Source: Escherichia phage MN04
Sequence record: MT129654.1
Direction: 5' to 3' (one strand)
DNA length: 64,000 nucleotides
This document shows positions 3,341 through 28,560 of the stretch, piece after piece. The notes beneath the pieces were generated by a model. That model was given only the letters and a program-made list of their open reading frames with translations. It ran no database searches and was not told the origin of the DNA. How positions within the stretch are numbered: the stretch's first letter is position 1; every line of letters begins with the position of its first letter. The translations under genes were made by a program, and so were the position numbers.

Positions 3341-3514
3341 ATGAGTACCAAAATTGAAATTGGCCGTCATAAAGGCCGTCTGATTGAACATTCGCTTTAC
3401 GAGTTATCGGATTCAGGTTCTTTACCTGACCTAGAGTCTGATTTGATTAAAGCTGCAGCCGATTATATCCATTGGCTTGAAGCGCAACTCCGCTTTGCTG
3501 ATAAGGCGTTCTGA
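3341..3514 (+). CDS. hypothetical small protein (57 aa)
   Basis: ATG with GGAG upstream; stop overlaps the next start (ATGA). Not in the ORF track (<60 aa). Confidence 0.35.
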   Translation: MSTKIEIGRHKGRLIEHSLYELSDSGSLPDLESDLIKAAADYIHWLEAQLRFADKAF

Positions 3515-3699
3515 TGAAAACTGTATTAGTCTATACTGAAAAGTTAAATGGCGACAAGGTATGGAAACTTCTTATCAAAGGAAGTCCTAATGACCAGTTT
3601 ATGGCTACCTGCGTAGGATTATACACTCGTCCTACCAAAAAGATGATTCGTCAATTTAAACGGTTACACCGTATGTTTTACGGTACATTTGAAAAATAA
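3514..3699 (+). CDS. small basic protein with C-terminal RPTKKMIRQFKR motif
   Basis: Shares the PTK(R/K)xIRQ basic motif with ORFs at 27309 and 28339. Confidence 0.4.
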   Translation: MKTVLVYTEKLNGDKVWKLLIKGSPNDQFMATCVGLYTRPTKKMIRQFKRLHRMFYGTFEK

Positions 3700-3734
3700 T
3701 AAATACCCTTATCTAATAATGGTAAGGGTTTATT

Positions 3735-4208
3735 ATGTTGTTGACCGGCAAATTATACAAAGAAGAAAAACAAAAACTTTATGATGCACAATGTGGTAAG
3801 TGTTTGATTTGTAAACGTGAATTAAACCCTGATGTTCAAAGTAACCACCTTGACCACGACCATGAATTGAGCGGGCCAAAAGCTGGTAAGGTTCGTGGTT
3901 TACTATGTAACCTGTGCAATGCTGCAGAAGGACAAATGAAGCATAAGTTCAACCGTTCTGGTCTTAAAGGTCAAAACGTTGACTACCTCGAATGGTTAGA
4001 GAATTTGCTGGTCTATCTGAAATCTGATTACACTGAAAACAATATCCATCCTAATTTCGTTCCTGATAAAACCAAAGAGTTCAGTAGATTAGGTAAGGAA
4101 GAAATGATTGCTGAAATGCTTTCGCATGGAATGACTTATAATGAATCTGACACAAAGAAACAAATGGTCGATTCATTTAAAAAACAACTGAGGAAATCGC
4201 TTAAATGA
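3735..4208 (+). CDS. 49: recombination endonuclease VII (gp49)
   Basis: 157 aa; MLLTGKLYKEEKQK... and the HLDHDHEL...CNLCN zinc-site segment match recalled T4 endo VII. Confidence 0.9.
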   Translation: MLLTGKLYKEEKQKLYDAQCGKCLICKRELNPDVQSNHLDHDHELSGPKAGKVRGLLCNLCNAAEGQMKHKFNRSGLKGQNVDYLEWLENLLVYLKSDYTENNIHPNFVPDKTKEFSRLGKEEMIAEMLSHGMTYNESDTKKQMVDSFKKQLRKSLK

Positions 4209-4302
4209 TTAATTTTTATGCCTTAACCGAATCTATGAATGATATTATCCGGCGCATGGGTGTTGAGTATCCTGCTCAATGGTTATTTGTTGTAACTAAT
4301 AC

Positions 4303-4530
4303 ATGGACTATCGTATGAATAAATTTCGTAATGCTGCTTCTGATATCCTGGCCAATATTACATTTGTCCTGTTTATTGTGTGCCTTTTAATCCTGGTTAT
4401 CCCATTTGGATTGCTGTTTGTAATGATTGGTGCGCTGAGTACTGAAAAGGGTCTTGAAGGGTCTGAGTTCGAAAAACGAATCCAGGCTGTGCATAGTGTT
4501 ATTGCTAAAATGATGAAGGTGAAAGAATGA
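4303..4530 (+). CDS. small membrane protein (75 aa)
   Basis: Long hydrophobic stretch (FVLFIVCLLILVIPFGLLFVMIGAL). Confidence 0.4.
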   Translation: MDYRMNKFRNAASDILANITFVLFIVCLLILVIPFGLLFVMIGALSTEKGLEGSEFEKRIQAVHSVIAKMMKVKE

Positions 4531-4823
4531 AACGTTTTGAAGAGTATGTAGCTACTGATTGGGCGGCTTGGGACAAGTTTGGCCAAGAATGGTACTTCCA
4601 TGACTGTGACCTGAACCCGGAATTCTTTATCGGTAAGGAAGATGACCTTAAAGATATCTATGCTCTGTCAGAGATTCACGGTATTAAACCTACCGTCTAC
4701 TTCTCTTTTGATGATATGGGATTCCTTATCCAGATTTACATCCCGTATGGAACTAATGAAGACGAAGTTATCAAAACTTGGGACTACCAAGGAGTTATTT
4801 CCTGTGGACCAAAAGTTAACTAA
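4527..4823 (+). CDS. hypothetical protein (98 aa)
   Basis: ORF with overlapping start. Confidence 0.45.
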   Translation: MKRFEEYVATDWAAWDKFGQEWYFHDCDLNPEFFIGKEDDLKDIYALSEIHGIKPTVYFSFDDMGFLIQIYIPYGTNEDEVIKTWDYQGVISCGPKVN

Positions 4824-5121
4824 AATTGAGATTTATGGTATCCCTGAGACAGTCATGCGCTGTCCAGGGTGCATTGCAGTTCTATCGCTCCTAAATTCCC
4901 TTTCTATCCCACATACTTTCTATCCTGTGATTAACCAGACGCCGTCAGGCGCAGTATATGACAAGCCTCTTATAGTATCATTGGCCAAACGTGCTGGCTT
5001 CAAGAGCTTAGCTATACGCTATCCTGTAATCTTTGTTGATAATAAGAAAATAGAAAATATTCCTGCCTTCAAATCCCTTTTGATTGAGCTTGGCTATGAC
5101 CGAGATTTAATTGAAGATTAG
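4804..5121 (+). CDS. glutaredoxin-like CxxC protein (possible NrdH-like); start uncertain
   Basis: IEIYG-x7-RCPGC looks like a glutaredoxin beta1-CxxC; the only in-frame ATG upstream (4642) overlaps the neighbour, so GTG 4804 is proposed. Confidence 0.4.
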   Translation: MDQKLTKIEIYGIPETVMRCPGCIAVLSLLNSLSIPHTFYPVINQTPSGAVYDKPLIVSLAKRAGFKSLAIRYPVIFVDNKKIENIPAFKSLLIELGYDRDLIED

Positions 5122-5171
5122 TATTTACTTCCTCTCCTCATGTGTTATAGTCTATCCTATCAACACATGAG
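5122..5171 (+). promoter_or_regulatory. PeSL-like element with an 11-bp stem that includes the SD
   Basis: TATTTAC...TATAGT, plus inverted repeat CCTCATGTGTT / AACACATGAGG. Confidence 0.45.
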
Positions 5172-5180
5172 GAGAACATT

Positions 5181-5363
5181 ATGACCATCCAAGATAAAGA
5201 AATTAAAGCCGACCAGTATTATTTGGTAAATGGACGTGCGGTTCGTGTAATTGCTGCTAGTGATTCAGACGTATGGTATCGTGTACTAGACCATAAAAAT
5301 ATTCCATTGATGGTATGTGACGGTAGCTTGTTTTGTTCGATAGCTAAGGAAATTAAATTATGA
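5181..5363 (+). CDS. hypothetical protein (60 aa)
   Basis: ORF following a PeSL-like element whose stem contains the SD. Confidence 0.4.
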   Translation: MTIQDKEIKADQYYLVNGRAVRVIAASDSDVWYRVLDHKNIPLMVCDGSLFCSIAKEIKL

Positions 5364-5614
5364 GCCTGAAATTACATTCAATGAAAAATGTCATCACCCT
5401 TAATCTTGATGATGAGCGCCTGATTTTTCTCACCGTCACTGATAAGAATATTGAAATTGCAAATGGTCCTAAGACTTATTGCTGCCCAGTGAAGAATTGG
5501 AAGCATGTAACCTTTTTGACCCTGGCCGACCGTCTGAAAGACCTTAAGTTGGATTTGGATATCAAAGATATCCAGTACATTAAAAATCTTATTGGATACA
5601 AACTGTTGAGGTAA
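5360..5614 (+). CDS. hypothetical protein (84 aa)
   Basis: ORF, overlapping start. Confidence 0.4.
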   Translation: MSLKLHSMKNVITLNLDDERLIFLTVTDKNIEIANGPKTYCCPVKNWKHVTFLTLADRLKDLKLDLDIKDIQYIKNLIGYKLLR

Positions 5615-5616
5615 CT

Positions 5617-5910
5617 ATGGGTAAAACTATCCGTCGTAAAGAATTGCCATCTAGAGATTTTAATTGCATTGCTAGACGTAAAGCACCTGATGGCGTATCG
5701 GAAGAAACTTTGAATGAAAATATCTTCCGGTCAGATAAATGGAAACGCTTTAGCGGTGTTGATTCTGAAGTTAAGAATGAAATGAATCGCCAACTTCGTA
5801 AAGAAGTGAGAAAGCTGAAAAAAGATGTTTACAACGACGATGAACCTGATTACAATACTTCTCATCGAGTTGCAAAACGTAAATCAAACGAGTGCTATCG
5901 TTACAGCTGA
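5617..5910 (+). CDS. hypothetical basic protein (97 aa)
   Basis: ORF; Lys/Arg-rich. Confidence 0.4.
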   Translation: MGKTIRRKELPSRDFNCIARRKAPDGVSEETLNENIFRSDKWKRFSGVDSEVKNEMNRQLRKEVRKLKKDVYNDDEPDYNTSHRVAKRKSNECYRYS

Positions 5911-6049
5911 GGAAAATATGAATATCAAACGTATGCTTTTTAAACAAGGATTATACACCTTAAATGTTGCTCCAAAAGGCGATACGACTAAGTGGTCAGT
6001 AAATGACTGGATTGAATTTATTGATGAAAACGGCAACTGGAAAATTTAA

Positions 6050-6250
6050 ATGAATCCTGAATCTAAATTATCACAACGAATTGCTGAAGCCCGTCGTCAG
6101 TTCTTTGAAAATATGGTAGCTCAAGGTATTGATGACGAAGTTTTTCTAAACTGGTTTTGGAATAACAAATATTCAAAATGTGCAGGAGCAATATTAATAT
6201 CGGCCGCAATGATGTATGAAGGTTGGAAAGGCGCACTAGCACAAAAATAG
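6050..6250 (+). CDS. hypothetical protein (66 aa)
   Basis: ORF, gene packing. Confidence 0.4.
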   Translation: MNPESKLSQRIAEARRQFFENMVAQGIDDEVFLNWFWNNKYSKCAGAILISAAMMYEGWKGALAQK

Positions 6251-6279
6251 TTTACAAACTCTTGGGACCAGAGTATAAT
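6250..6279 (+). promoter_or_regulatory. early promoter, PeSL-like
   Basis: GTTTAC, 18 nt, TATAAT; the -10 sits in the loop of GGGACCA/TGGTCCC. Confidence 0.55.
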
Positions 6280-6319
6280 GGTCCCCACGGATTATAAATT
6301 TTAAACTGAGGAAATTATT

Positions 6320-6649
6320 ATGTCACAAGCTATTAAAAACGTACTGAACTCTTTCGCTTTCGATAAAGTTAATGAACTGATGAAAACTGGCTTTGTAACT
6401 CCTCAGGTTCTTGACCAATGGGTTGCTGAACTGTTACCAATCATGCACTCTAAAGACCAAAAAATTGGTAAGAACGGTATTCGTGAAATCCTGGTTCAAT
6501 ATATTCTTGATGAGTTTGATGTTGCTGCCTTCGGTGTTGAATCTAAAGCTTGGCACCCAGGTGAAATCACAGACAAAACCATCCGTCGTATGAAGAACCA
6601 ACGTAAGAAAAAATTCGTTGACCTGAAAATTGTTAAGGCTGCGAAATGA
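6320..6649 (+). CDS. hypothetical protein (109 aa)
   Basis: ATG preceded by CTGAGGAAATTATT TIR and a PeSL-like promoter at 6250-6279. Confidence 0.5.
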   Translation: MSQAIKNVLNSFAFDKVNELMKTGFVTPQVLDQWVAELLPIMHSKDQKIGKNGIREILVQYILDEFDVAAFGVESKAWHPGEITDKTIRRMKNQRKKKFVDLKIVKAAK

Positions 6650-6912
6650 TTAAAATAAAACTCTCTAATTACGATAAAAACTTGGAAATGATTGCTATGA
6701 AAGAAGAACTCCTGAATGATGTCCGCTTTACAGGTTATGCAGTCCAATTTAATGGTGATGGGGCTCTCCAGATTGAAGGTGACCACTTTATTATCGAATA
6801 TGAATTTAAACGGTACTGGCTATACGCTAAAGATGAAGTTGGCGGTATTGATTACGTCGATGAGTTTGATAATCTTGATGATGCATTAGAAGGAGCTCGA
6901 TTCCTACAATGA
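6646..6912 (+). CDS. hypothetical protein (88 aa)
   Basis: ORF, overlapping start. Confidence 0.45.
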   Translation: MIKIKLSNYDKNLEMIAMKEELLNDVRFTGYAVQFNGDGALQIEGDHFIIEYEFKRYWLYAKDEVGGIDYVDEFDNLDDALEGARFLQ

Positions 6913-7172
6913 AACCCATATCCACCACCCTCGCTTATGAAGGTCTCGGATTTTTCTTAATAGATAACTGTATGGATGTTGAGTTTGTTTGTGGTGAGAC
7001 TTCTTTAGTATGGAAGTCTCATATTTCCAAATACAACCATCGGGATTATCCGGAACTTTTTAAAGAATTTTGCGGATATATGTCCGAACATGGATGTACT
7101 GATACAATTTCTTATCCCGAGTTCATACAAATCCTTGAAACAGTATTTCAGGCTTATTGCTTACTCCGTTGA
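6909..7172 (+). CDS. hypothetical protein (87 aa)
   Basis: ORF, overlapping start. Confidence 0.45.
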   Translation: MKPISTTLAYEGLGFFLIDNCMDVEFVCGETSLVWKSHISKYNHRDYPELFKEFCGYMSEHGCTDTISYPEFIQILETVFQAYCLLR

Positions 7173-7238
7173 TGCTTTAAACGGGTCTCCAAATACTATG
7201 ATATAATAGACCTATGATTTGAGTTATCTGAGGTAACA

Positions 7239-7796
7239 ATGACCGAAATTAAACTGACTAAAAATAACTATGTAAATAATAAGGAGCTTCTGAAAGCCAT
7301 TACCCAGTGGAAAACGGAACTCCGAGAAAATACCGACCCTAATAAAATAGTTCGTCAGAACGACGTTATCGGCTTGGCTATTATGCTCATTGCTGAAGGC
7401 CTTTCTAAGCGTTTCAACTTCTCCGGATATACCCAATCTTGGAAGCAAGAAATGATTGCTGATGGAATCGAAGCCTCTATTAAAGGTCTTCATAACTTCG
7501 ACGAAACAAAATACGACAACCCACATGCATATATCACTATGGCTTGTTTTAATGCCTTTGTTCAGCGTATCAAGAAAGAACGTAAAGAAATGGCAAAGAA
7601 ATACAGCTACTTCGTCCATAACGTTTATGACGCCAATGACGACGACATGGTAGGTATCGCAGATGAAACTTTTATCCAGGATATTTACGACAAAATGACT
7701 CAGTATGAAACCTCTTTAGTTAAAGCGCCAGGGTCTGATAAGAGCGCTGAATCTAAAGTTGGTGAGCTGGATTTTTTATATGGAACTCAAGATTAA
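7239..7796 (+). CDS. 55: late-transcription sigma factor gp55
   Basis: 185 aa; [55 protein letters not shown] matches recalled T4 gp55. Confidence 0.9.
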
Positions 7797-8007
7797 CCTG
7801 GTAGGCCTTTTAGAAGAAGTAGATGGAGAGTATTCGGCAATTCCTTATGTTCTTAAAATGTATCTTAAGGATATTGCCAAGCTTCCTATTGTAATAGACC
7901 CAAAACACCCTGATTCGGTAGAAATTAAAGCTGAAAAAGGAACATTAACTTATAACTATCACGTTACCGACGAAGATTTTTATATAAAACTGAATTACAA
8001 GGATTAA
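7780..8007 (+). CDS. hypothetical protein (75 aa)
   Basis: ORF overlapping the 3' end of gene 55; start uncertain. Confidence 0.35.
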
Positions 8008-8008
8008 T

Positions 8009-8320
8009 ATGCAAAGCCATGACATTTCTCAATTGACTGATGAGCAAATTGAAGAAGCCCAGCAACGTTTAGAAGAGCACAATATTAAAGAAGCCAATTC
8101 GCAAGCGGCTAAGATTCTTAAGAAGAATGCTCGTGAAATCCGTCGTTTAAATCTCCATGCCCAAGGCGCTGTACTTGAAAACAACTTTGAAGCATATAAG
8201 TACGCTTTAATTAAATTACGCGGTATTTACCGTCAACCTGTTACTGATGAACTTGTTCAATTGATGTGGGAATCTACCCGCAAACAAATTTGGGAAATCG
8301 TCAATGGCTCTAGTAAATAA
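8009..8320 (+). CDS. hypothetical protein (103 aa)
   Basis: ORF, gene packing. Confidence 0.45.
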   Translation: MQSHDISQLTDEQIEEAQQRLEEHNIKEANSQAAKILKKNAREIRRLNLHAQGAVLENNFEAYKYALIKLRGIYRQPVTDELVQLMWESTRKQIWEIVNGSSK

Positions 8321-8592
8321 ACCCTTTAAACGGCTTCTTATTGGAGCCGCCTTCAGACTTCGCTCATACGGTAATATTTGTATTAAGCAGACCGAAACCG
8401 AATATAAAATGGTTGGGCAGTATTCCGATGAAATTTTTCGGATTGAGCCTGTAGCCAAGGTTTGGGTGGATTCACATCAACTTAAGAAGTGGTGGCAACG
8501 ATGATAACATGGACAGGTGGCTAATGAAAGACGAACATCCGGATTTTTAAGCTATGAATGACGAATACGAAAAAGTTTAAGAGGTTTTATGA

Positions 8593-8766
8593 ATGACGAA
8601 TTCGATGGATTTTGATAAGATTAAATCTGACAAAAATGAGATGATACTTAAATTTGAAGCTGCTCGTATTAAAGCGGAAAATGAAGGTATTATTACCTAT
8701 AAGCCTATCAAGTTCAGGTCTTCTCATGAACCTCTGTATGGTGTATTAATTGGTAAAGGAGCTTAG
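8593..8766 (+). CDS. hypothetical small protein (57 aa)
   Basis: ATG with GAGG upstream; ends at the terminator hairpin. Confidence 0.3.
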   Translation: MTNSMDFDKIKSDKNEMILKFEAARIKAENEGIITYKPIKFRSSHEPLYGVLIGKGA

Positions 8767-8778
8767 GCTCCTTTTTTG
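8757..8778 (+). terminator. intrinsic terminator
   Basis: GGAGCTTAGGCTCC hairpin followed by TTTTTT. Confidence 0.6.
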
Positions 8779-8800
8779 CTTTATATTCGGATGATAAAAT
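8777..8800 (+). promoter_or_regulatory. middle promoter candidate (MotA box + -10)
   Basis: TGCTTTA, 11-nt spacer, TAAAAT, upstream of the 47/46 unit. Confidence 0.45.
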
Positions 8801-8820
8801 GAACCAACTGAGGAGAACAT

Positions 8821-8964
8821 ATGGAATTACTTTTAGGATATGTCGTGTTATTCATGGCATTCTACACATTCACACGAGCCTGTTGGATAGGATTCTTTTC
8901 TACTCCTGATGGGTTCATCTCAATAATTTTATTTTGCATTGCGATAACGGTGCTCGGCTTATGA
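8821..8964 (+). CDS. small hydrophobic protein (47 aa)
   Basis: CTGAGGAGAACAT-ATG TIR; predicted TM peptide; stop overlaps the gene 47 start (ATGA). Confidence 0.35.
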   Translation: MELLLGYVVLFMAFYTFTRACWIGFFSTPDGFISIILFCIAITVLGL

Positions 8965-9983
8965 AAATATTAAACACAGGTGACTGGCACCTTGGAGTGA
9001 AGGCTGATGATGTGTGGGTACAAAATATCCAACGTCAAGGTATCCAAGACGCTATCAATTATTCTAAAGCAAATGGTATTACCGTGTGGATTCAATACGG
9101 TGATATCTTTGACGTTCGTAAAGCAATTACTCATAAGTGTATGGAATTCGCTCGCGAAATCTCTGATTTGCTTAAAGCTAATGGCATTACCATGTATACC
9201 ATTGTTGGTAATCATGATATGCACTACAAAAACACCCTAACTCCTAACGCTGCTTCTGAAGTTCTCGGTAAATACGACCATATCAAGGTTATTGAGAAAC
9301 CTACTACGGTTAACTTTGATGGCACCGAAATTGATTTGATTCCATGGATATGTGAAGAAAACACGACTGATATCATGGACCATATCAAAAATACCACAGC
9401 AGATTTCTGTATTGGACATTGGGAATTAAATGGTTTCTATTTCTATAAAGGAATGAAATCTCATGGTTTAGAACCTGATTTCCTTAAAAAGTATAAGCAA
9501 GTTTGGTCAGGCCACTTCCACACTATTTCTGATGCAGCAAACGTCAAGTACATTGGTACTCCATGGACCCTGACTGCAGGTGATGAGAACGACCCTCGTG
9601 GTTTCTGGATTTTCGATACCGAAACTCATAAAATGGATTTCATCATTAATGAAACCTGTTGGCATCGTAAGATTCATTATCCTAATGCGACTATCGATTA
9701 CAAAGATTTTACAAATATCGCAGTTCGTGTTATAGTCGATAAAATCGATGACGGCCTTACTAAGTTCGAATCAGAGCTTGAAAAGGTTGTTCACTCTTTA
9801 CGTATTGTGTCTAAGGTAGATAATAGTGTTGATATCGATGATTCTGAAGAGGAAGATGAAGTTAAATCCCTCTTGGATATGATGTATGATTATATCGACG
9901 CCCTTCCTGATGGCCACACTGAAGAAGACGTTAAAGCCCTTAAGACTATGGCCGCACAACTTTATAATGAGGTTACACGATGA
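8961..9983 (+). CDS. 47: recombination endonuclease subunit gp47 (Mre11-like)
   Basis: MKILNTGDWHLGVKADD..., GDIFDVRKAITHK, GNHDMHYKN metallophosphoesterase motifs; matches recalled T4 gp47. Start refined from the track's 8934. Confidence 0.9.
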   Translation: MKILNTGDWHLGVKADDVWVQNIQRQGIQDAINYSKANGITVWIQYGDIFDVRKAITHKCMEFAREISDLLKANGITMYTIVGNHDMHYKNTLTPNAASEVLGKYDHIKVIEKPTTVNFDGTEIDLIPWICEENTTDIMDHIKNTTADFCIGHWELNGFYFYKGMKSHGLEPDFLKKYKQVWSGHFHTISDAANVKYIGTPWTLTAGDENDPRGFWIFDTETHKMDFIINETCWHRKIHYPNATIDYKDFTNIAVRVIVDKIDDGLTKFESELEKVVHSLRIVSKVDNSVDIDDSEEEDEVKSLLDMMYDYIDALPDGHTEEDVKALKTMAAQLYNEVTR

Positions 9984-10243
9984 CTTTAGATGAATTCAAA
10001 AAATCGGGACTTGAACTGGAACACGACTGTATAGTTATTGACGATGATGGGCAACCTAGTACAATTAAGTTCTGGTTTGAAGCCGTGAGCACTCGTGATA
10101 CCGGCGAGCTTATTAAAGTTTATGTTGCTACCGATTGGGCTGTAGAATTTAGCTTTAATGTAATGGTAGATGATACTCCAGAAACATTAATTCATATGGC
10201 TGAATCATGCATCAAGGATGCTTATAACGATGAAGACTTTTAA
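9980..10243 (+). CDS. hypothetical protein (87 aa)
   Basis: ORF between 47 and 46; overlaps both neighbours slightly. Confidence 0.45.
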   Translation: MTLDEFKKSGLELEHDCIVIDDDGQPSTIKFWFEAVSTRDTGELIKVYVATDWAVEFSFNVMVDDTPETLIHMAESCIKDAYNDEDF

Positions 10244-12100: not shown

Positions 12101-12102
12101 AT

Positions 12103-12126
12103 TGCTTTAAAATATTGATTTATAAT
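12103..12126 (+). promoter_or_regulatory. middle promoter candidate (MotA box + -10)
   Basis: TGCTTTA, 11-nt spacer, TATAAT, upstream of the 12157 ORF and gene 45. Confidence 0.5.
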
Positions 12127-20938: not shown

Positions 20939-21321
20939 TGTCGCATCGAGTAGAAAATAAGCCACATTTATGTTTTGATATCGATAACACAATCACGATT
21001 TGGAACCATGACCGTGATTATGAGAACTTTAAACCGGACACCGAAATGGTGTCCATGATTAATAAGCTTTATGATGAAGGGTACGAGATTACATTGTTCA
21101 CCGCGCGTGGCATGACTTCATGTGGCCCAGGTCGAATCTTGGTTGAAGTAGTTCCTGCATTGGTTAAGAACCTTGAAAAGATTGGATTGAAATATCATAA
21201 TCTGCTTACACATAAGCCGAGTTATACTTTTATCATCGATGACCGAGCAATCCGTCCCGACCACTTTAAAGAAATGGTTCGTGAAGGAACTCTTGATAGT
21301 TATAAGGCCTATCATCCATGA
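20938..21321 (+). CDS. HAD-superfamily phosphatase-like protein
   Basis: LCFDIDNTIT (HAD motif I DxDxT) and TLFTARG; small KdsC-sized protein. Confidence 0.5.
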   Translation: MSHRVENKPHLCFDIDNTITIWNHDRDYENFKPDTEMVSMINKLYDEGYEITLFTARGMTSCGPGRILVEVVPALVKNLEKIGLKYHNLLTHKPSYTFIIDDRAIRPDHFKEMVREGTLDSYKAYHP

Positions 21322-21854: not shown

Positions 21855-22549
21855 AACACATTACCGCTGTTAGTTTTGAAAATGCATTTAAACAAATGAA
21901 CGAAGAAATCCTGGAAGCTCCACAGTTTGCAGTTGATTCTCGTATCGGACGTTGTTATGAAATTGGTTCTGCTTCGGTAGAAGTACTGGATGCAAGCACC
22001 TATAAATTCACCGATCCTCGTATTAATCGTATTAGTTATGAATATGCCGAATCTTTCTGGAAGTTTATGATTTCTGGTGGTACTGACGCCGCCGAAGCAT
22101 TTAAGGAATACCCTAATGTTGCTAAGTTCATTGATAAGCCGAAAAGTGACGTATTGCCTGCAAACTTCAACACTTTCTATGGACCTCGAATTGTGGCCCA
22201 ACTCCCAGCCTTACTTAAAGAGCTTAAAGAAAAGCCTAACTCAAGACGCGTTGTGTTCCAGATTCTCCAAGAACAAGACCAAGCCCTCCTTGATTCTGAC
22301 GAATCCTTAGAATATCCTTGCACCGATTCGGTAACGTATTATATTCGTGATGGACGTCTGTATGCACACACTCATATGCGTTCACAGAACTGTGCTATTG
22401 TTATGCAGCTGGATTTCTATCTGCAGGGTAAACTGATGGCATTTATTGCTGAACAGTGCGGTGTCGGTTTAGGTACATATTCCCACACCATGGTAAGTGC
22501 ACACGTGTTTGAACGTGATTTTGACTACGTCCGAGGTTTCCTGAAATGA
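21851..22549 (+). CDS. 42: thymidylate-synthase-family pyrimidine hydroxymethylase (divergent dCMP hydroxymethylase, gp42 position)
   Basis: NSRR and CTDSVTYYIRDGRL...MRSQN align to the catalytic-Cys region of recalled T4 gp42, at lower identity than the neighbouring core genes. Confidence 0.6.
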   Translation: MKHITAVSFENAFKQMNEEILEAPQFAVDSRIGRCYEIGSASVEVLDASTYKFTDPRINRISYEYAESFWKFMISGGTDAAEAFKEYPNVAKFIDKPKSDVLPANFNTFYGPRIVAQLPALLKELKEKPNSRRVVFQILQEQDQALLDSDESLEYPCTDSVTYYIRDGRLYAHTHMRSQNCAIVMQLDFYLQGKLMAFIAEQCGVGLGTYSHTMVSAHVFERDFDYVRGFLK

Positions 22550-23439
22550 GTTTGTTTATCGTTCCTATTTTCAGTATGCGTAGTTACGAAACAGGTGAAT
22601 ATGCCGTCCTTAAGGACGGCAATTTTCAACTCCATTTAAATCGTGCTCGTCCAGGTGATTATCTGGCTTATCCTAGAAATTCGAGCGATATCAAAGAATG
22701 CATTGAATTATTCCCAGATCTGAATTTCGTACCACTTTGGTATAAAGAAAATGCTTATGAAACCCGTAAACATTTCTGGTCTGAAAATGAGTTTGTAGTC
22801 GATTCACTAATCGAATACTACGATTGCTCAGGACTGGTAACCGATATCACTGGTTACGATGGTGCTCATACTGTACAATTCAACTTTAATATCACAATGG
22901 ACCCTGAAGTTCCTCGTTATTATATCGACGAGTTCATTGATATTGATGTGGCTTCAGTTGAACGTTCACTTTATACTACAGTCCTGAATCAATGCCAGAA
23001 AGACGTCTTGGTGTCACGAGGTGCATCCTCTGATAAGATTTTTGTAGACCAAAAGGTAATTAATCCTGCAGTAATTGAGCGTTACTCTGAAGGTCTAGCG
23101 CCTATTAAAATTGATGGTATTTTCCATCCATTCCGTATTTCAGATAAGTGTTATCAATTCGAAAGAGTTGTAGACCAAGCTGCCGCTGAAGGTGCTCGTC
23201 TTTATATCACCGATCCGAATGATTCATTTAAGCGCGAAGACTATCGTCCTGATGTAGAGATTATTAAATTCAAACCAAGTAAGGTTGAATATTATCAAAT
23301 TCTGAAATCAAGACCACATATCATTTATCATGAGAACCCAGGTTTAGTATTCCATCCTGGTCTGGCTGAATTCATTTATTTCGGTGCCAATATTCATTCT
23401 GAATACGAAATGCCACGTTATGAGGACGTAGTATGCTAG
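22546..23439 (+). CDS. hypothetical protein; candidate DNA glycosyl/modification transferase (occupies the T4 beta-gt position)
   Basis: 297-aa ORF between the gp42-like gene and uvsX; functional call is by synteny only, no recognised motif. Confidence 0.35.
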   Translation: MSLFIVPIFSMRSYETGEYAVLKDGNFQLHLNRARPGDYLAYPRNSSDIKECIELFPDLNFVPLWYKENAYETRKHFWSENEFVVDSLIEYYDCSGLVTDITGYDGAHTVQFNFNITMDPEVPRYYIDEFIDIDVASVERSLYTTVLNQCQKDVLVSRGASSDKIFVDQKVINPAVIERYSEGLAPIKIDGIFHPFRISDKCYQFERVVDQAAAEGARLYITDPNDSFKREDYRPDVEIIKFKPSKVEYYQILKSRPHIIYHENPGLVFHPGLAEFIYFGANIHSEYEMPRYEDVVC

Positions 23440-23642
23440 GTCCTCTATTGCTTTTTATAGGTTTGTTATTATTCTCTTTCGGAGCCTTGCTATTACTAGT
23501 GTGGCTCGAGAAACGAGAAGTTCGGAAGATAGTCGATAAGGCTATCAACCGAGGAATTAAGTAATGCTGTAGCTGTGAAGTGATATAATTACCCTATCTT
23601 AAAACGTGAGAAAAAATATAATGATGCCTATGGAAAAATATA

Positions 23643-24815
23643 ATGTCTGATTTAAAATCCCGTTTGATTAAAGCTTCTACTTCTAAAATGACTGCCGACC
23701 TGACCAAATCTAAATTGTTTAATGGTCGTGACGAAGTTCCTACTCGTATTCCTATGCTTAATATTGCATTGGGTGGTGCATTGAATGCAGGCTTACAATC
23801 AGGTTTGACAATCTTTGCTGCACCGTCTAAACACTTTAAAACGTTGTTTGGATTAACTATGGTTGCGGCGTATATGAAGAAATATCCAGACGCAATTTGC
23901 TTGTTCTATGACTCTGAGTTCGGTGCTTCAGAATCTTATTTCCGTTCAATGGGTGTTGACCTGGAACGTGTGGTTCATACGCCAATCCAGTCAGTCGAAC
24001 AACTGAAGGTTGACATGACCAACCAATTAGAAGAAATTACTCGTGGCGAAAAGGTTATTATCTTTATCGACTCCATCGGTAACACTGCTTCTAAGAAAGA
24101 AACCGAAGATGCTTTGAACGAGAAAGTTGTAGGTGATATGACTCGTGCTAAGTCTCTGAAATCTCTGTTCCGTATCGTAACACCTTATCTGACTATCAAG
24201 GATATTCCTTGTGTAGCAATTAACCATACGGCTATGGAAATTGGTGGAATGTATCCTAAAGAGATTATGGGTGGTGGTACTGGTATTCTGTACTCTGCTT
24301 CTACTGTGTTCTTTATCTCTAAACGTCAGGTTAAAGATGGCACCGAGCTCACTGGTTATGACTTCACCCTGAAGGCCGAAAAATCTCGTACTGTTAAAGA
24401 GAAATCAACGTTCCCAATTACTGTGAACTTTGAAGGTGGTATTGACCCATTCAGTGGATTGCTCGAAATGGCTACTGATATTGGCTTTGTTGTGAAACCT
24501 AAAGCTGGTTGGTATAATCGTGCATTCCTTGACGAAACCACAGGTGAAATGGTTCAAGAAGAAAAATCATGGCGTGCTAAAGCTACCGATTGTGTCGAGT
24601 TCTGGGGACCACTGTTTAAACATGCTCCATTCCGTGAAGCAATCGAGAATAAGTATAAGCTCGGTGCAATTAATTCTATTAAAGAAGTCGATGATGCGGT
24701 GAACGACCTTATTAACTCTCGTGTCTCTAAGAACGTTGCTGTTAAATTAGGTGGCAATGCCCAAAGTGCCGCTGATATCGAAAACGATTTAGAAGAGATG
24801 GATTTAGATGACTGA
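23643..24815 (+). CDS. uvsX: recombinase UvsX (RecA-like)
   Basis: 390 aa; MSDLKSRLIKASTSK..., Walker A-like region, EDALNEKVVGDMTRAKSLKSLFRIVTPY; matches recalled T4 UvsX. Confidence 0.95.
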   Translation: MSDLKSRLIKASTSKMTADLTKSKLFNGRDEVPTRIPMLNIALGGALNAGLQSGLTIFAAPSKHFKTLFGLTMVAAYMKKYPDAICLFYDSEFGASESYFRSMGVDLERVVHTPIQSVEQLKVDMTNQLEEITRGEKVIIFIDSIGNTASKKETEDALNEKVVGDMTRAKSLKSLFRIVTPYLTIKDIPCVAINHTAMEIGGMYPKEIMGGGTGILYSASTVFFISKRQVKDGTELTGYDFTLKAEKSRTVKEKSTFPITVNFEGGIDPFSGLLEMATDIGFVVKPKAGWYNRAFLDETTGEMVQEEKSWRAKATDCVEFWGPLFKHAPFREAIENKYKLGAINSIKEVDDAVNDLINSRVSKNVAVKLGGNAQSAADIENDLEEMDLDD

Positions 24816-25137
24816 TTTATCTGATTTAGATAATTTTGTTAAAGATACTGAAGAGGGTCCTAGTGACCCTCGTTATTATGAGAAATCGTTAGATATAATC
24901 CGTAAGTCAATGGGTTCTGTTAAGCAGGAAATTATGCTTACATTACCCGATGGCACTGCTCACATCGTTTATGTGATGAATATTGTTATTGAGAAAGATG
25001 GAAAAGTGTCGGTTGATTTCGGAACGCCTTCCGAAGACCGAAAAGAAGAGCTAGCGCTTCATGTAGAAAAATGTGTTACAATGCAAATACAAGAAGAACT
25101 GGATAAAATTAAATCTAAGAGGTGGTGGAAGTGGTAG
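24808..25137 (+). CDS. hypothetical protein; gp40-like by position
   Basis: 109-aa ORF between uvsX and 41, as in T4; no sequence confirmation. Confidence 0.4.
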   Translation: MTDLSDLDNFVKDTEEGPSDPRYYEKSLDIIRKSMGSVKQEIMLTLPDGTAHIVYVMNIVIEKDGKVSVDFGTPSEDRKEELALHVEKCVTMQIQEELDKIKSKRWWKW

Positions 25138-26561
25138 AAACTATTTTGGCTCAACTGCTAGGCAATAGTGATTATTTCACTAAGGTCTGGCCTTATATGA
25201 ATGATTCTTATTTTGACCAGGGTCCGGCAAAGACCCTTTTCAAAGAAATCAAAAAACATGTCAATGAATATAATGCGGTGCCTTCTAAAAATGCTTTGAG
25301 TATTGCATTAGATAACAGCACCCTTTCAGAAGTTGAACACCAAGGAGCTAAAGAGCTTTTAAGTTCACTGAACGCTGGCCCTGAAGACCAAGAATGGTTG
25401 GTTAAAGAGACAGAGAAATATGTTCAGAAGGCAGCGATGTATAATGCCACTTCAAAAATTATTGAAATTCAAACTAATGCCGACCTTCCGGTTGAGCAAC
25501 AAAATAGAAAACTCCCAGGTATTGGTGCTATTCCAGATATCATGCGTGATGCATTATCGATTTGTTTCGATTCTGAATTAGGCCATGACTGGATGGATGA
25601 CTATGAAGAACGTTTTAAAAGTTATTCCGATAAAGCACGTAAGGTTCCATTCCGTCTTAATATTCTGAATAAGATTACTAAGGGTGGCGCTGAGTTTGGT
25701 ACTGAAAACGTATTGTTGGCAGGAACAAACGTAGGTAAGTCTCTGGGTCTGTGTTCATTGGCTGCTGATTACCTTCAATCCGGTTACGATGTTCTTTATA
25801 TCTCCATGGAGATGGCAGAGGAAGTATGCGCTAAGCGTATCGATGCTAACCTTCTAGATGTATCACTGGATGATATTGATGATGGTCACGTCTCATGGCC
25901 TGAATATAAAGCTAAGATGGATAAGTGGCGTTCAACTGCTACTTTAGGTCGTTTAAAGATTAAACAGTATCCTACTGGTGGTGCTAATGCCGATACATTC
26001 CGTGCATTATTAAACGAATACAAGCTCAAACAAAACTTTGTCCCACAGGTCGTTATCGTCGACTACTTGGCTATCTGTGCTTCATCCCGTACGAAAGTTT
26101 TCTCTGAAAACAGTTATGGATTGATTAAGATGGTTGCCGAAGAACTACGTGGACTTGCAGTAGAGAAGAAATTATTGTTGTGGACTGCAGCCCAGACTAC
26201 TCGTGGTGCGAACGTTGCCGCCGAAATCGATATGGCTGATATCGCTGAATCCTTTGGTATTGCACATACTGCAGACTTCATGTTAGGTGTGGTCGAGACA
26301 GAAGAGTTTGCTCAGATGGGTATGCAGATGGTTAAGCAGCTTAAATCTCGTTATGGTGATAAGAGCTACTACAACAAATTTAAGATTGGTGTTAAGAAAG
26401 GAAACCAGCGTTGGTATGAAGTTGAAGACGATTCTAACCCAGGCCCAGTGAACACCGTTCGTGAGGCTACAGGTGAAATGAACCGCCAAGCAGAGGTCAA
26501 TCGCCAGTCGCGTGTTAATAGAAGCGATTTAGACGATTTAGCAGCATCTATCAAATTTTAA
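25122..26561 (+). CDS. 41: replicative helicase gp41 (DnaB-like)
   Basis: 479 aa; GTNVGKSLGLCSLAADYL Walker A and IVDYLAIC; matches recalled T4 gp41. Confidence 0.95.
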   Translation: MVEVVETILAQLLGNSDYFTKVWPYMNDSYFDQGPAKTLFKEIKKHVNEYNAVPSKNALSIALDNSTLSEVEHQGAKELLSSLNAGPEDQEWLVKETEKYVQKAAMYNATSKIIEIQTNADLPVEQQNRKLPGIGAIPDIMRDALSICFDSELGHDWMDDYEERFKSYSDKARKVPFRLNILNKITKGGAEFGTENVLLAGTNVGKSLGLCSLAADYLQSGYDVLYISMEMAEEVCAKRIDANLLDVSLDDIDDGHVSWPEYKAKMDKWRSTATLGRLKIKQYPTGGANADTFRALLNEYKLKQNFVPQVVIVDYLAICASSRTKVFSENSYGLIKMVAEELRGLAVEKKLLLWTAAQTTRGANVAAEIDMADIAESFGIAHTADFMLGVVETEEFAQMGMQMVKQLKSRYGDKSYYNKFKIGVKKGNQRWYEVEDDSNPGPVNTVREATGEMNRQAEVNRQSRVNRSDLDDLAASIKF

Positions 26562-26586
26562 GGAGCTTCGGCTCCTTTTTTTTGTT
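26561..26586 (+). terminator. intrinsic terminator after gene 41
   Basis: AGGAGCTTCGGCTCCT hairpin plus T9. Confidence 0.7.
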
Positions 26587-26592
26587 TTAAGG

Positions 26593-26621
26593 GTTTACTT
26601 CTCCTGTAGGCATGATACTAT
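26593..26621 (+). promoter_or_regulatory. early promoter, PeSL-like
   Basis: GTTTAC, 17 nt, TACTAT with TG at -15, then AGACCTATCAACT. Confidence 0.55.
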
Positions 26622-26645
26622 AGACCTATCAACTTGGAGAACAAA

Positions 26646-26963
26646 ATGAAAACCATCGACTGTAAAGCGGAATATAAAGTGTATTACCATGGAAGTTGTA
26701 GTGTTGCTAATATTGGTAATATGCTTTGTCCTCCTGAGGAAACAGGAGTTCTGTCTGAAACTGGTCGTAAGAAAAACCTAAATCGTGTGTTCTTTACTGA
26801 AGATATCGGTTTGGCTAAGATTTATGCTGGACGAGCTGCTCGTTCGGTGGGAGGAGAACCTCGTCTTTATCGTGTAATTGCTCCGGTAGATGTGGTTTGT
26901 TTAAATGATACCAAAGGCGCTACGGTTTATCACGCTGAATGGGCCTTCTGTGAGGAAATCTAA
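26646..26963 (+). CDS. hypothetical protein (105 aa)
   Basis: ATG with GGAGAA SD after a PeSL-like promoter. Confidence 0.45.
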   Translation: MKTIDCKAEYKVYYHGSCSVANIGNMLCPPEETGVLSETGRKKNLNRVFFTEDIGLAKIYAGRAARSVGGEPRLYRVIAPVDVVCLNDTKGATVYHAEWAFCEEI

Positions 26964-27167
26964 ATGTATAAATTAGAGAACGTAGTGTTTATTGGTTGGT
27001 TTGAAAATGGTAATATGTTTACCAAAGAAACTGCGCTGGATGTTAGTGACCAAAAAATGATTGAATGGGTTACAGTGCAGTATGCAGAAGTGAATAATGC
27101 ACTGGTGAAAGCCTTTGTTAATGACAATAAAGTTTTTGAATATGATGCCCGCATTGAGGAAATCTAA
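26964..27167 (+). CDS. dmd: Dmd-like antitoxin (discriminator of mRNA degradation)
   Basis: VVFIGWFENGNMFTKE...QYAEVNNALVKAF resembles recalled T4 Dmd, in the 41-61 interval as in T4. Confidence 0.7.
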   Translation: MYKLENVVFIGWFENGNMFTKETALDVSDQKMIEWVTVQYAEVNNALVKAFVNDNKVFEYDARIEEI

Positions 27168-27308
27168 ATGGAAGAGGTTGAATGTGTAGTATGTGGTTGT
27201 TCGGTATGTGAAGACCAGGCAGTATTTGATGCTTGGGACAACGCAACTTGTTTAGACTGCGATAGCGAATACGAAGAAATTGCTCATAAACATGAAGACG
27301 AGGAATAA
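27168..27308 (+). CDS. small Cys-rich acidic protein (46 aa)
   Basis: CVVCGCSVC...CLDC; start overlaps the dmd stop. Confidence 0.35.
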   Translation: MEEVECVVCGCSVCEDQAVFDAWDNATCLDCDSEYEEIAHKHEDEE

Positions 27309-27548
27309 ATGAATATTGTATTAATGAAGCCAACCCCTAGCTCTTTTTGGAATAAATCTTTTGGTAAGCATAATATGTTTATCCAACGCACCGTAAGCAG
27401 CTGGGAACTAGTTCTTTCAGTAGGTCATAATGATTATGAACAGGAATATGTAGAGTTCTTCGAATTTCCTGTGAAGCCTACTAAGCGTCAGATTCGTCAG
27501 ACCAAACGTAAATTCCGTAAAATTTATTTGGAAGATTCGTTAAAATAA
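27309..27548 (+). CDS. small basic protein with PTKRQIRQTKRKFRK motif
   Basis: Paralogue of the 3514 and 28339 ORFs by shared C-terminal motif. Confidence 0.4.
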   Translation: MNIVLMKPTPSSFWNKSFGKHNMFIQRTVSSWELVLSVGHNDYEQEYVEFFEFPVKPTKRQIRQTKRKFRKIYLEDSLK

Positions 27549-27549
27549 A

Positions 27550-27579
27550 GTTTACATCGGTCTATGGTAGTGATACTAT
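27550..27579 (+). promoter_or_regulatory. early promoter, PeSL-like
   Basis: GTTTAC, 18 nt, TACTAT, then AGACCTATCCACT. Confidence 0.55.
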
Positions 27580-27607
27580 AGACCTATCCACTAATGAGGA
27601 GTTAAAA

Positions 27608-27901
27608 ATGAAAAAGTTATTAATCGCAGCAATCCTTACAGTAGCATCATGTGGCACGGCTCCGGTAACTGCCGGATTGGATAAAGACCTTTGTGAATGG
27701 TCTATGACTGCAGACCAAGAGTCAGTTGAACATCAGATTTATGCCGATATCATGAACATCACTAAACGTGACCGTCCTGACATGGTTAAAGAAGTGTCCG
27801 ACCAATTAGCTTCAACCGGTGTTATGCAGTACAACTATGTTTTGTATTGTGACGCTAATTTCGATAACAAAAACATTGTTAAAGAGGTTACAGGTGAGTA
27901 A
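27608..27901 (+). CDS. secreted/lipoprotein-like small protein; Sp-like by size and position
   Basis: 97 aa, signal peptide with a Cys (ILTVASCG); same size and locus as T4 sp. Confidence 0.45.
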   Translation: MKKLLIAAILTVASCGTAPVTAGLDKDLCEWSMTADQESVEHQIYADIMNITKRDRPDMVKEVSDQLASTGVMQYNYVLYCDANFDNKNIVKEVTGE

Positions 27902-27902
27902 A

Positions 27903-28337
27903 ATGATTAACAGAACTTTGGTTATTAAAAAGCTTCGTTGTAAAAATCCAAACGCACAAGCATACAGGATGTTTTGGAGCGACGACCATCAGTACCTAGG
28001 TTATTTTATTGTTGATAGCGACGATAGAATTGTATTCGCTCATAAACTTCTTAACAGAGAATTAAACCATTGGCAAGAACTTATTGCTGTTAAGTCTAAA
28101 TTATTTTCGCTCAATGCAATGCACCAATTGGTTTATTTTTTCGCTGACGGGTTTCCGGACAAGGTTGAATTTGAAGGATTCGAATTTAAAGATATCCACC
28201 CGGGCAACGAATTGAACGACCGCGTTAATATGGATATCCCTAGCAAGTATATCAAAAACAGTCTGTTGAAAATTCTGGAAGCTCCGGTTTATTCAATTGA
28301 CGACCAGATTTTTAATGCCTTTATGAACCGAGGTTGA
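27903..28337 (+). CDS. hypothetical protein (144 aa)
   Basis: ATG right after the upstream stop; the track's longer ORF (27819) overlaps the preceding gene. Confidence 0.45.
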   Translation: MINRTLVIKKLRCKNPNAQAYRMFWSDDHQYLGYFIVDSDDRIVFAHKLLNRELNHWQELIAVKSKLFSLNAMHQLVYFFADGFPDKVEFEGFEFKDIHPGNELNDRVNMDIPSKYIKNSLLKILEAPVYSIDDQIFNAFMNRG

Positions 28338-28338
28338 T

Positions 28339-28560
28339 ATGTTTGTCTTAACTCAATTCTCTAAAGCAGTGTATAGTTACTCTTGTCAGTGGGAAGTCTT
28401 TATTGATTCTCCTTCGCCCAAGTACGGCGTTTTTGGACGAGTAACTACTCAGGCTTACGTTGCACGACCTACTAAAAGACAGATTCGTAAGCTTAAAAAG
28501 GCACACCGTCAACTGATTAAAAGAAGGGAACAATATGAGTGCAATGTGTACGGGCTCTAA
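28339..28560 (+). CDS. small basic protein with RPTKRQIRKLKK motif
   Basis: Paralogue of the 3514 and 27309 ORFs. Confidence 0.4.
   Translation: MFVLTQFSKAVYSYSCQWEVFIDSPSPKYGVFGRVTTQAYVARPTKRQIRKLKKAHRQLIKRREQYECNVYGL

What the first reader, a model, noticed from the sequence alone, without database searches (positions are those of the whole stretch)
3514..28560. Family of small basic proteins sharing a PTK(R/K)xIRQ C-terminal motif
Three dispersed early ORFs (3514..3699, 27309..27548, 28339..28560; 61-79 aa) share ...(R/K)PTK(R/K)(Q/M)IRQ.K+..+ near the C-terminus. This looks like a small paralogous family, possibly nucleic-acid-binding, that has spread among early-region modules.
Basis: seen in the sequence. 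Interest (0 to 1): 0.4.

Follow-up and report, generated by a model that had tools for sequence, protein, structure and literature searches.

The report
Three TifA-family anti-toxin paralogs
The three small basic ORFs are real, conserved genes of the known TifA family (Pfam DUF7279) of phage RNA-binding proteins, whose T4 member blocks a bacterial anti-phage toxin, so the family is already described and only what these three copies target is still open.

Summary
The window is a JS98-like T4-type phage (Dhakavirus). ORFs 3514-3699, 27309-27548 and 28339-28560 all match Pfam DUF7279 (E 1e-16 to 1e-20). They are the only three members in the window, and the rest of a JS98-type genome holds none. 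They evolve under strong purifying selection (dN/dS 0.02-0.14).

DUF7279 is the TifA family. T4 gp61.4 (TifA) and RB69 TifA match the same model. ORF 27309 is the positional tifA ortholog, in the dmd operon. AlphaFold2 gives the TifA fold, three beta-strands plus a C-terminal helix, for the two copies modelled.

So "nucleic-acid-binding paralogous family" is right, but already published (Srikant 2022; Guegler 2023). Proteins identical to 27309 and 28339 were tested there and neutralised none of seven type III toxins. Their targets are unknown, and 3514 is untested.

My increment is small. The three belong to separate, deeply diverged lineages in fixed early-gene slots: dmd-tifA, the 61.2/adfA-61.1 stretch, and pin-49. 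The loop that sets ToxN specificity in TifA differs in all three, which suggests different targets.

The parts
27309..27548 (+). tifA ortholog (T4 gene 61.4 position), 79 aa. Last gene of the early operon orf34-dmd-46aa ORF-tifA.
   Evidence: Annotated 61.4 in JS98 and 100% identical to it. DUF7279 70.8 bits; phrog_2375 E 2e-35. 47-49% identical to T4 TifA. dN/dS 0.02-0.12 against Dhakavirus orthologs.
28339..28560 (+). Second TifA-family gene (JS98 orf29), 73 aa. Lies in the next early operon, one base after the stop of orf30 (the 61.2/adfA slot) and upstream of orf28, 61.1 and 61.
   Evidence: DUF7279 71.4 bits. Identical string to 'tifA vB_EcoM_005' in Table S2 of PMC10853763. AF2 model E2-8, E17-24, E34-40, H46-61, pLDDT 72. 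dN/dS 0.02-0.09.
3514..3699 (+). Third TifA-family gene (JS98 orf76; described there as RB69 orf087c-like), 61 aa, the shortest form. Its ATG overlaps the stop of the PinA-like ORF; gene 49 follows.
   Evidence: DUF7279 60.6 bits; phrog_3272 E 1.5e-33. AF2 model E2-9, E15-22, E31-36, H42-60, pLDDT 83. Same pin-X-49 slot in Tequatrovirus KIT03 and Mosigvirus phiC120. dN/dS 0.07-0.14.
3272..3300 (+). Promoter-like site (TTTACA-17-TATAAT, 11 of 12) upstream of the PinA-like ORF and the 3514 gene.
   Evidence: sequence. A consensus match only.
3335..3514 (+). Short PinA-like ORF (59 aa, the C-terminal third of the Lon protease inhibitor PinA). Co-transcribed neighbour of the 3514 gene.
   Evidence: Pfam Inhibitor_I24 E 1e-6, profile positions 88-136 of 136. 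phrog_9092 'inhibitor of host Lon protease' E 4e-41.
3705..3729 (+). Terminator-like hairpin plus T-run between the 3514 gene and gene 49.
   Evidence: A consensus match only.
26594..26630 (+). T4-type early promoter (GTTTAC...TGATACTAT, then AGACCTATC) driving orf34-dmd-46aa ORF-tifA.
   Evidence: Read in the sequence. The signature TGATACTATAGACCTATC occurs 8 times, all on the + strand, against 0.05 expected by chance.
26964..27167 (+). dmd (inhibitor of the RnlA/LsoA toxins), in the same operon as tifA.
   Evidence: Pfam Dmd E 2e-20; JS98 annotation.
27551..27588 (+). Second early promoter with the same signature, driving sp-orf30-28339 gene-orf28.
   Evidence: (repeat family D4, 95% identical).
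27903..28337 (+). orf30, in the slot of T4 61.2/adfA, immediately upstream of the 28339 gene.
   Evidence: Only its last ~18 residues match the RB14 61.2-like protein (80% identity). Weak, sub-threshold AdfA hit on the C-terminus. phrog_8539, function unknown.

Best explanation
The three ORFs are expressed early genes of a JS98-like T4-type phage. [quoted passage not shown] The helix is capped by Pro-Thr and lined with Lys/Arg.

Shown here: family membership, the fold for two of the three, conservation of the RNA-binding residues, purifying selection, and fixed positions in early operons next to known anti-toxin genes.

Taken from the literature: in T4 and RB69 TifA this helix binds RNA. RNA binding is required to trap the type III endoribonuclease toxin ToxN in an inactive ribonucleoprotein complex. 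Specificity for the toxin depends on the variable sheet and loop, notably residue 41.

Inferred: each of the three copies uses the same RNA-anchoring helix and presents a different sheet/loop surface. Each therefore neutralises a different host RNA-targeting toxin or defence effector. Their actual targets are unknown. Proteins identical to 27309 and 28339 failed to neutralise the six ToxN homologs and one TenpN tried so far. The 3514 lineage has not been tested.
For: Membership: DUF7279 hits at E 1e-16 to 1e-20 for all three. The same model is hit by T4 TifA (72.7 bits) and RB69 TifA (63 bits).

Orthology of 27309: it is annotated 61.4, lies downstream of dmd in the same operon, and is 47-49% identical to T4 TifA.

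Motif: P-T-K-(R/K)-x-I-R is invariant in all three and aligns with TifA P53 T54 K55 R56 R59. Those residues are required for RNA co-purification, ToxN rescue and ToxN co-immunoprecipitation (PMC10853763).

Fold: AF2 gives beta-beta-beta-helix, with the helix starting directly after the Pro-Thr pair, for 3514 (pLDDT 83) and 28339 (pLDDT 72). This matches the published description of TifA.

Real genes: dN/dS is 0.02-0.14 at dS 0.35-0.95. The ORFs are tightly packed, with overlapping or abutting stop and start codons, behind early promoters.

Anti-toxin context: 27309 shares an operon with dmd. 28339 lies in the stretch holding the adfA (61.2) slot, which Srikant et al. call a possible anti-TA island (PMC9391042). 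3514 follows a PinA-like Lon-inhibitor gene in three genera.

Different specificity: the beta2-beta3 loop that carries TifA residue 41 differs in sequence in all three and in length in two, while the helix is conserved. The three fall in separate clades of a family tree.
Against: The only functional data on these exact proteins are negative. The JS98 and vB_EcoM_005 homologs, identical to 27309 and 28339, neutralised none of seven type III toxins, and expression was verified for the latter. An anti-toxin role for them is therefore extrapolation from T4 and RB69 TifA.

RNA binding of these three has never been measured. TifA also binds ssDNA and dsDNA in vitro with similar affinity.

The AF2 models rest on a shallow 16-sequence alignment, and 27309 was not modelled. 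No solved or predicted structure of known function resembles the fold (best PDB E 0.63, best BFVD E 0.01). The tree is from about 77 columns without bootstrap support.
Confidence: 0.65

Rival explanations
1. The family's common function is general binding of RNA or the ribosome early in infection, for example binding 16S rRNA, protecting or chaperoning RNA, or tuning translation. ToxN trapping would then be a specialisation of the T4/RB69 branch only. On this reading the three copies here are housekeeping-like RNA binders, not defence inhibitors.
For: What is conserved across the family is the RNA-binding helix, not the ToxN-facing loop. TifA binds RNA without ToxN, and the complex carries 16S rRNA. 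Six of ten homologs tested, including two of the proteins in this window, inhibit no toxin tried.
Against: The copies sit in variable accessory regions beside dmd, the adfA slot and pin, not among core genes. Presence and copy number vary. The pin-49 type is in 339 phage records and the others in about 620-650, and the sampled T4-type loci hold a single copy within 6 kb of tifA. The tifA slot is dimorphic among close relatives (52% against 97% identity for the neighbouring copy). These features are typical of host-range genes.
Confidence: 0.2
2. They are small DNA-binding proteins, such as early transcription or nucleoid modulators, that use the basic helix on DNA.
For: TifA from RB69 binds short ssDNA and dsDNA in vitro with affinity similar to RNA. 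The proteins are very basic, pI about 10.
Against: The nucleic acid that co-purifies with TifA is RNase-sensitive and DNase-insensitive. No match to any DNA-binding domain in Pfam, NCBIfam or the structure libraries.
Confidence: 0.07
3. The resemblance is a chance basic patch, or the extra copies are decaying, non-functional duplicates.
For: The ORFs are short and pairwise identity is low (23-30% in the alignments). The loose regex alone would be expected about 0.5 times by chance in six frames; that figure is my own estimate, not a tool result.
Against: Pfam E-values are 1e-16 to 1e-20. A conserved Trp strand lies outside the patch. dN/dS is 0.02-0.14 with many synonymous changes. Synteny is conserved across three genera. 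No frameshifts were seen in any of the loci examined.
Confidence: 0.01

Closest known systems
TifA (T4 gene 61.4; RB69 TifA): ToxN inhibitory factor A (Srikant et al. 2022, PMC9391042; Guegler et al. 2023, PMC10853763)
   Same: Same Pfam family, DUF7279. Same Pro-Thr-capped basic helix, with the K55/R56/R59 equivalents present. Same predicted beta-beta-beta-helix fold. Early expression. ORF 27309 occupies the same dmd-tifA position.
   Different: The JS98-type ortholog (27309) and the 28339 protein did not neutralise any ToxN or TenpN tested. The loop around TifA residue 41 differs in all three. 3514 lacks about 15-20 N-terminal residues and has a shorter loop. 27309 and 3514 lack the C-terminal extension of T4 TifA. 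28339 and 3514 lie outside the dmd operon.
Dmd (T4 gene 61.5), protein inhibitor of the RnlA/LsoA toxins
   Same: A small early protein that neutralises a host RNase toxin, encoded in the same operon (26964-27167).
   Different: Unrelated sequence family (Pfam Dmd, PF17587). According to the papers cited here it inhibits the toxin directly, whereas TifA needs RNA.
AdfA (T4 gene 61.2), anti-DarT factor
   Same: Another anti-toxin gene of the same dmd-to-61 'anti-TA island'. The 28339 gene lies directly after the gene that fills the adfA slot.
   Different: No homology to the three ORFs. The slot gene here (orf30) shares only its last ~18 residues with a 61.2-like protein.
HIV-1 Vif with APOBEC3, an RNA-glued viral antagonist (analogy drawn by Guegler et al.)
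   Same: A viral inhibitor that needs RNA as a third partner to neutralise a host antiviral enzyme.
   Different: Entirely unrelated protein and host. The resemblance is a functional analogy only.

Membership tests
TifA family / Pfam PF23945 (DUF7279) | Score above the curated gathering threshold of the DUF7279 model (24.5 bits) | tested here: met
   60.6, 70.8 and 71.4 bits for 3514, 27309 and 28339. T4 and RB69 TifA score 72.7 and 63 bits on the same model.
TifA family / Pfam PF23945 (DUF7279) | Pro-Thr helix cap followed by the basic cluster (TifA P53 T54 K55 R56 R59) | tested here: met
   P40 T41 K42 K43 R46 in 3514; P57 T58 K59 R60 R63 in 27309; P44 T45 K46 R47 R50 in 28339. The one difference is a conservative R56-to-K change in 3514.
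TifA family / Pfam PF23945 (DUF7279) | [quoted passage not shown] | tested here: met
   AF2 gives E2-9, E15-22, E31-36, H42-60 for 3514 (pLDDT 83) and E2-8, E17-24, E34-40, H46-61 for 28339 (pLDDT 72), compared.
tifA orthologs (gene 61.4 proper) | Position downstream of dmd in the same operon, between genes 41 and 61 | tested here: met
   Met for 27309 only: dmd at 26964-27167, a 46-aa ORF, then 27309. Not met for 28339, which is in the next operon about 0.8 kb downstream, or for 3514, which is in the pin-49 slot about 24 kb away.
TifA as an RNA-binding protein | Binds RNA through the basic helix | not testable with these tools
   Shown only for RB69 and T4 TifA. Inferred here from the conserved residues.
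TifA as a ToxN inhibitor | Neutralises ToxN toxicity or restores plating on toxIN-positive cells | not testable with these tools
   Published assays on identical proteins were negative. The JS98 (=27309) and vB_EcoM_005 (=28339) homologs rescued none of six ToxN homologs and one TenpN. The 3514 lineage is not in the tested panel. Sequence-family membership holds, but the function 'ToxN inhibitor' should not be transferred.

The most novel reading that the evidence does not exclude
TifA-fold proteins would be a modular platform of RNA-tethered inhibitors. T4-like phages would keep several deeply diverged copies, three in Dhakavirus and at least two around pin in the Mosigvirus phiC120. Each copy would trap a different host RNase toxin or defence effector on abundant RNA. 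The pin-49 copy would form a second anti-toxin module together with the Lon inhibitor PinA. The two copies that failed against ToxN and TenpN would then point to defence toxins not yet linked to any phage inhibitor.
Probability: 0.3. Interest if true: 0.55.

Novelty: already known. Interest (0 to 1): 0.3.

Why it matters
The family and its motif are already in the literature, so the finding itself is not new. It still has practical value in three ways.

1. It links the 'unknown function' Pfam entry DUF7279, and the 'hypothetical protein' labels on these genes, to the characterised TifA family.

2. It shows that homologs treated in the published screen as coming from different phages are in fact co-resident paralog lineages in one genome. 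Each is under purifying selection and each has a different specificity loop.

3. It gives three concrete candidates for finding new toxin or defence targets. Two have documented negative results against ToxN and TenpN, and one has never been tested.

Tried and rejected
**Fourth member.** I looked for a divergent fourth copy with a regex and two HMMs over all six frames of the window and the rest of JS98. None was found.

**Structure matches.** Foldseek of the 3514 model against PDB and BFVD gave nothing significant. The best PDB hit had E 0.63. The best BFVD hit had E 0.01 and was an uncharacterised 54-aa protein of Salmonella phage S16. The third fold-search job was not used.

**Other libraries.** NCBIfam has no model for any of the three or their neighbours. 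A full-text search for 'DUF7279' found no paper.

**Homolog collection.** The search for homologous proteins returned only close relatives (13 and 3 hits), so the structure alignments stayed shallow. The exhaustive profile search found only 43 clusters at 50% identity. One of them, P0031 (195 aa, repetitive), looks spurious and was dropped. Proteins from that search could not be passed to structure prediction.

**Recent duplication.** I considered that 28339 might be a recent duplicate of 27309. I rejected this because they are about 23% identical and fall in separate clades.

**orf30 as AdfA.** I considered that orf30 upstream of 28339 might be an AdfA homolog. Only a C-terminal ~18-residue stretch is shared.

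**T4 49.1.** I considered that the 49.1 ORF (3208-3357) might be a degenerate member, because phiC120 has a member at that position. It was not detected at E below 1.

**T4 and RB69 genome census.** I did not scan whole T4 or RB69 genomes. 'One copy in T4-type phages' holds only for the region within 6 kb of tifA in five loci.
Full report
**What the window is.** Megablast of the two regions holding the ORFs matches Escherichia phage JS98 and other Dhakavirus genomes (T4-like, Straboviridae). Identity is 96.7% over 86% of one query and 98.9% over all of the other. The + strand of the window is the direction of early transcription. In the JS98 annotation the three ORFs are:

- orf76, a hypothetical protein between a Pin-like gene and gene 49 (endonuclease VII);
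- gene 61.4, downstream of dmd;
- orf29, a hypothetical protein between sp/orf30 and 61.1/61.

- A six-frame scan for PT[KR][KR]..[KR] finds exactly these three sites.
- The alignment has an invariant Trp about 25 residues upstream of the invariant P-T-K..I-R..K...R.
- Pairwise BLASTP E-values are 3e-6 to 6e-5.
- All three exceed the gathering score of Pfam PF23945 (DUF7279), with E 1.3e-16, 8.6e-20 and 5.7e-20.
- They fall in related PHROGs that cross-hit each other: 3272, 2375 and 12748.
- HMMs built from 9 and from 47 family members find no further member in the window, nor in JS98 coordinates 45,000-154,000. The window plus those loci tile the whole JS98 genome.

A JS98-type genome therefore holds exactly three members.

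[quoted passage not shown] T4 escapes the type III toxin-antitoxin system toxIN by amplifying the dmd-tifA locus. Guegler et al. (NAR 2023, PMC10853763) reported the following:

- TifA binds RNA.
- Its AlphaFold model is a three-stranded beta-sheet packed on a C-terminal basic helix.
- The Pro-Thr pair capping that helix and the basic cluster after it are conserved in homologs.
- The P53A/T54A and K55A/R56A/R59A mutants lose RNA co-purification, ToxN rescue and ToxN co-immunoprecipitation.
- Loop residue 41 tunes ToxN inhibition.

I confirmed that T4 and RB69 TifA match DUF7279 at 72.7 and 63 bits. DUF7279, described in Pfam as of unknown function, is therefore the TifA family. The equivalents are P40-R46 in the 3514 protein, P57-R63 in 27309 and P44-R50 in 28339.

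**Structure.** AlphaFold2 on 16-sequence alignments gives strand-strand-strand-helix for both proteins modelled, with the helix starting directly after the Pro-Thr pair. The 3514 protein has mean pLDDT 83 and the 28339 protein has 72. This agrees with the published TifA description. Foldseek against PDB and BFVD gives no significant match, so the fold has no characterised structural relative.

**Are they real genes?** Against orthologs in other Dhakavirus genomes, and for 3514 also against a Tequatrovirus, dN/dS is 0.02-0.14 with dS 0.35-0.95. The gene layout also supports expression.

- A terminator after gene 41 is followed by a T4-type early promoter at about 26594-26630.
- That promoter drives orf34, dmd (26964), a 46-aa CxxC ORF (27168) and tifA (27309).
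- A second promoter with the same 18-nt signature, at about 27551-27588, drives sp, orf30, the 28339 gene and orf28. Genes 61.1 and 61 follow on the same strand.
- The signature occurs 8 times in the window, always on the + strand, against 0.05 expected by chance.
- The 3514 gene follows an 11/12 promoter match at 3272-3300 and a 59-aa PinA-like ORF whose stop overlaps its ATG. It is followed by a hairpin plus T-run before gene 49.

**Relationship of the three copies.** They are 23-30% identical to each other. Each is much closer to proteins of other phages.

| ORF | Closest relatives | Identity |
|---|---|---|
| 27309 | T4-type TifA | 47-49% |
| 3514 | Gene in the same pin-X-49 slot of Tequatrovirus KIT03 | 78% |
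| 3514 | Gene in the same slot of Mosigvirus phiC120 | 53% |
| 28339 | Other clusters, and T4 TifA at 37-40% | up to about 46% |

A neighbour-joining tree on 77 columns, without bootstrap and so only indicative, places them in three separate clades. They are old lineages in fixed slots, not recent dispersed duplicates.

- In all seven Dhakavirus-like IMG/VR loci the 27309 and 28339 types lie about 1 kb apart. Five T4-type loci have only tifA within 6 kb on each side.
- phiC120 has two members flanking pin.
- The family is small: 43 clusters at 50% identity among 1.84 billion representatives.
- It is not limited to T4-like phages. It occurs in IME11-like and Felixounavirus-size genomes. It also occurs in the nin region of contigs related to phages of Proteus and Providencia.

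**What is known about these exact proteins.** Table S2 of Guegler et al. lists the ten TifA homologs that were screened against six ToxN homologs and one TenpN.

- 'tifA vB_EcoM_005' is string-identical to the 28339 protein.
- 'tifA JS98' is the 27309 protein. The genome-encoded JS98 protein is 100% identical to the window's. The PDF text shows the same composition with one displaced E, which I take to be an extraction or typing artefact.

The paper states that only the T2, T4, T6 and RB69 homologs neutralised ToxN proteins and that the other six neutralised none. Expression was verified for the vB_EcoM_005 and CB4 versions. Neither paper uses the word 'paralog' or says that two of the tested clusters occur in one genome.

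**Mechanism proposed.** The steps have different standing.

- Shown here: family membership, the fold for two copies, conserved RNA-binding residues, selection and early-operon context.
- From the literature: the helix binds RNA, and RNA binding is needed to trap ToxN in an inactive ribonucleoprotein complex. The variable loop sets toxin specificity.
- Inferred: each of the three copies anchors on RNA in the same way and presents a different sheet/loop surface, and so acts on a different host RNA-targeting toxin or effector.

Support for the inference is indirect. The loop that corresponds to TifA residues about 33-43 is SPSPKYGVFG in 28339, VGHNDYEQE in 27309 and a shorter GSPNDQFM in 3514. 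The neighbours are dmd (anti-RnlA), the adfA slot (anti-DarT in T4) and a PinA-like Lon inhibitor. Among close relatives the tifA slot is dimorphic: the JS98 type and the VR7 type are 52% identical, while the 28339 gene about 1 kb away stays 97% identical. That is a pattern expected of host-range genes.

The main rival is that the family's common role is general RNA or ribosome binding, and that ToxN trapping is a speciality of the T4/RB69 branch. The negative screen is compatible with either reading.

**Comparison and novelty.** As a sequence family this is TifA/DUF7279, and every sequence and fold criterion I could test is met. The functional label 'ToxN inhibitor' should not be transferred. 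For two copies the published assay was negative, and for the third there is none. The incremental points are the DUF7279-TifA link, the three co-resident lineages with fixed slots, and the untested pin-49 lineage.

**Verdict.** The finding is ordinary in kind, but it offers three well-defined candidates for target discovery. Interest 0.3.

Noticed in passing
window 27168-27308 (+): A 46-aa ORF with CxxC...CxxC spacing (MEEVECVVCGCSVCEDQAVFDAWDNATCLDCDSEYEE...) fits exactly between the dmd stop and the tifA start. It is not annotated in the JS98 RefSeq record. It is conserved in frame in six Dhakavirus loci, one of them with an in-frame 5-aa deletion, and matches phrog_13952 (E 5e-30). It is probably a real small zinc-ribbon-like gene inside the dmd-tifA operon.
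   Followed up: partly
window 27903-28337 (+): orf30 fills the slot of T4 61.2/adfA (anti-DarT). It shares only its last ~18 residues (SIDDQIFNAFMNRG, 80% identity) with the 61.2-like protein of RB14. This looks like a mosaic junction where the gene body was replaced and the 3' end kept. Some records label it 'nucleotidyltransferase', but Pfam and NCBIfam give no support for that.
   Followed up: partly
window 3335-3514 (+): The 'Pin-like' gene here is only 59 aa and matches just the C-terminal third of PinA (profile positions 88-136 of 136). KIT03 and phiC120 have longer pin genes (447 and 414 nt) in the same slot. It could be a truncated remnant or a minimal inhibitor domain.
   Followed up: no
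window 7199, 26613, 27571, 34321, 39153, 48102, 51459, 51803 (+): The 18-nt signature TGATACTATAGACCTATC (extended -10 plus downstream bases) occurs 8 times, all on the + strand, against 0.05 expected by chance. It marks T4-type early promoters. Two copies flank the orf34-dmd-tifA cassette and could serve as recombination substrates, like those that amplified dmd-tifA in T4.
   Followed up: partly
L012 and L013, 6001-6294 compared with 7074-7304 / 7441-7671: Among Dhakavirus genomes the tifA slot holds one of two alleles, the JS98 type (79 aa) or the VR7 type (98 aa, with a T4-like C-terminal extension). They are only 52% identical, while the second family gene about 1 kb downstream stays 97% identical.
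   Followed up: partly
L050 (Mosigvirus phiC120) 579-773 and 1192-1377: Two DUF7279 members flank the pin gene (HMM E 5e-12 and 3e-13). The upstream one sits where T4-type phages have gene 49.1. The window's 49.1-position ORF (3208-3357) is not a detectable member.
   Followed up: partly
L025-L048 (IMG/VR contigs of 16-86 kb): A short family member (...FWMLKINVGWIEEHYKFPCKPTKRQIRKKKKEW...) recurs in these contigs. The one contig searched (L037) matches Proteus and Providencia phages of about 40-51 kb, where the surrounding genes are annotated DNA helicase and NinG. The family is thus not confined to virulent T4-like phages.
   Followed up: partly
C-termini of family members (window 28339 protein residues 66-73; P0016, P0017, P0020, P0025, P0029, P0039, P0044): A second conserved C-terminal motif follows the basic helix in many members: ...WEGIHCDIIGL, ...EEIVISVLGME, YECNVYGL in the 28339 protein, and VTCDYAEILK in T4 TifA. 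It is absent from the 3514 and 27309 proteins and from RB69 TifA. Its role is unknown, and the AF2 model has low confidence there.
   Followed up: no
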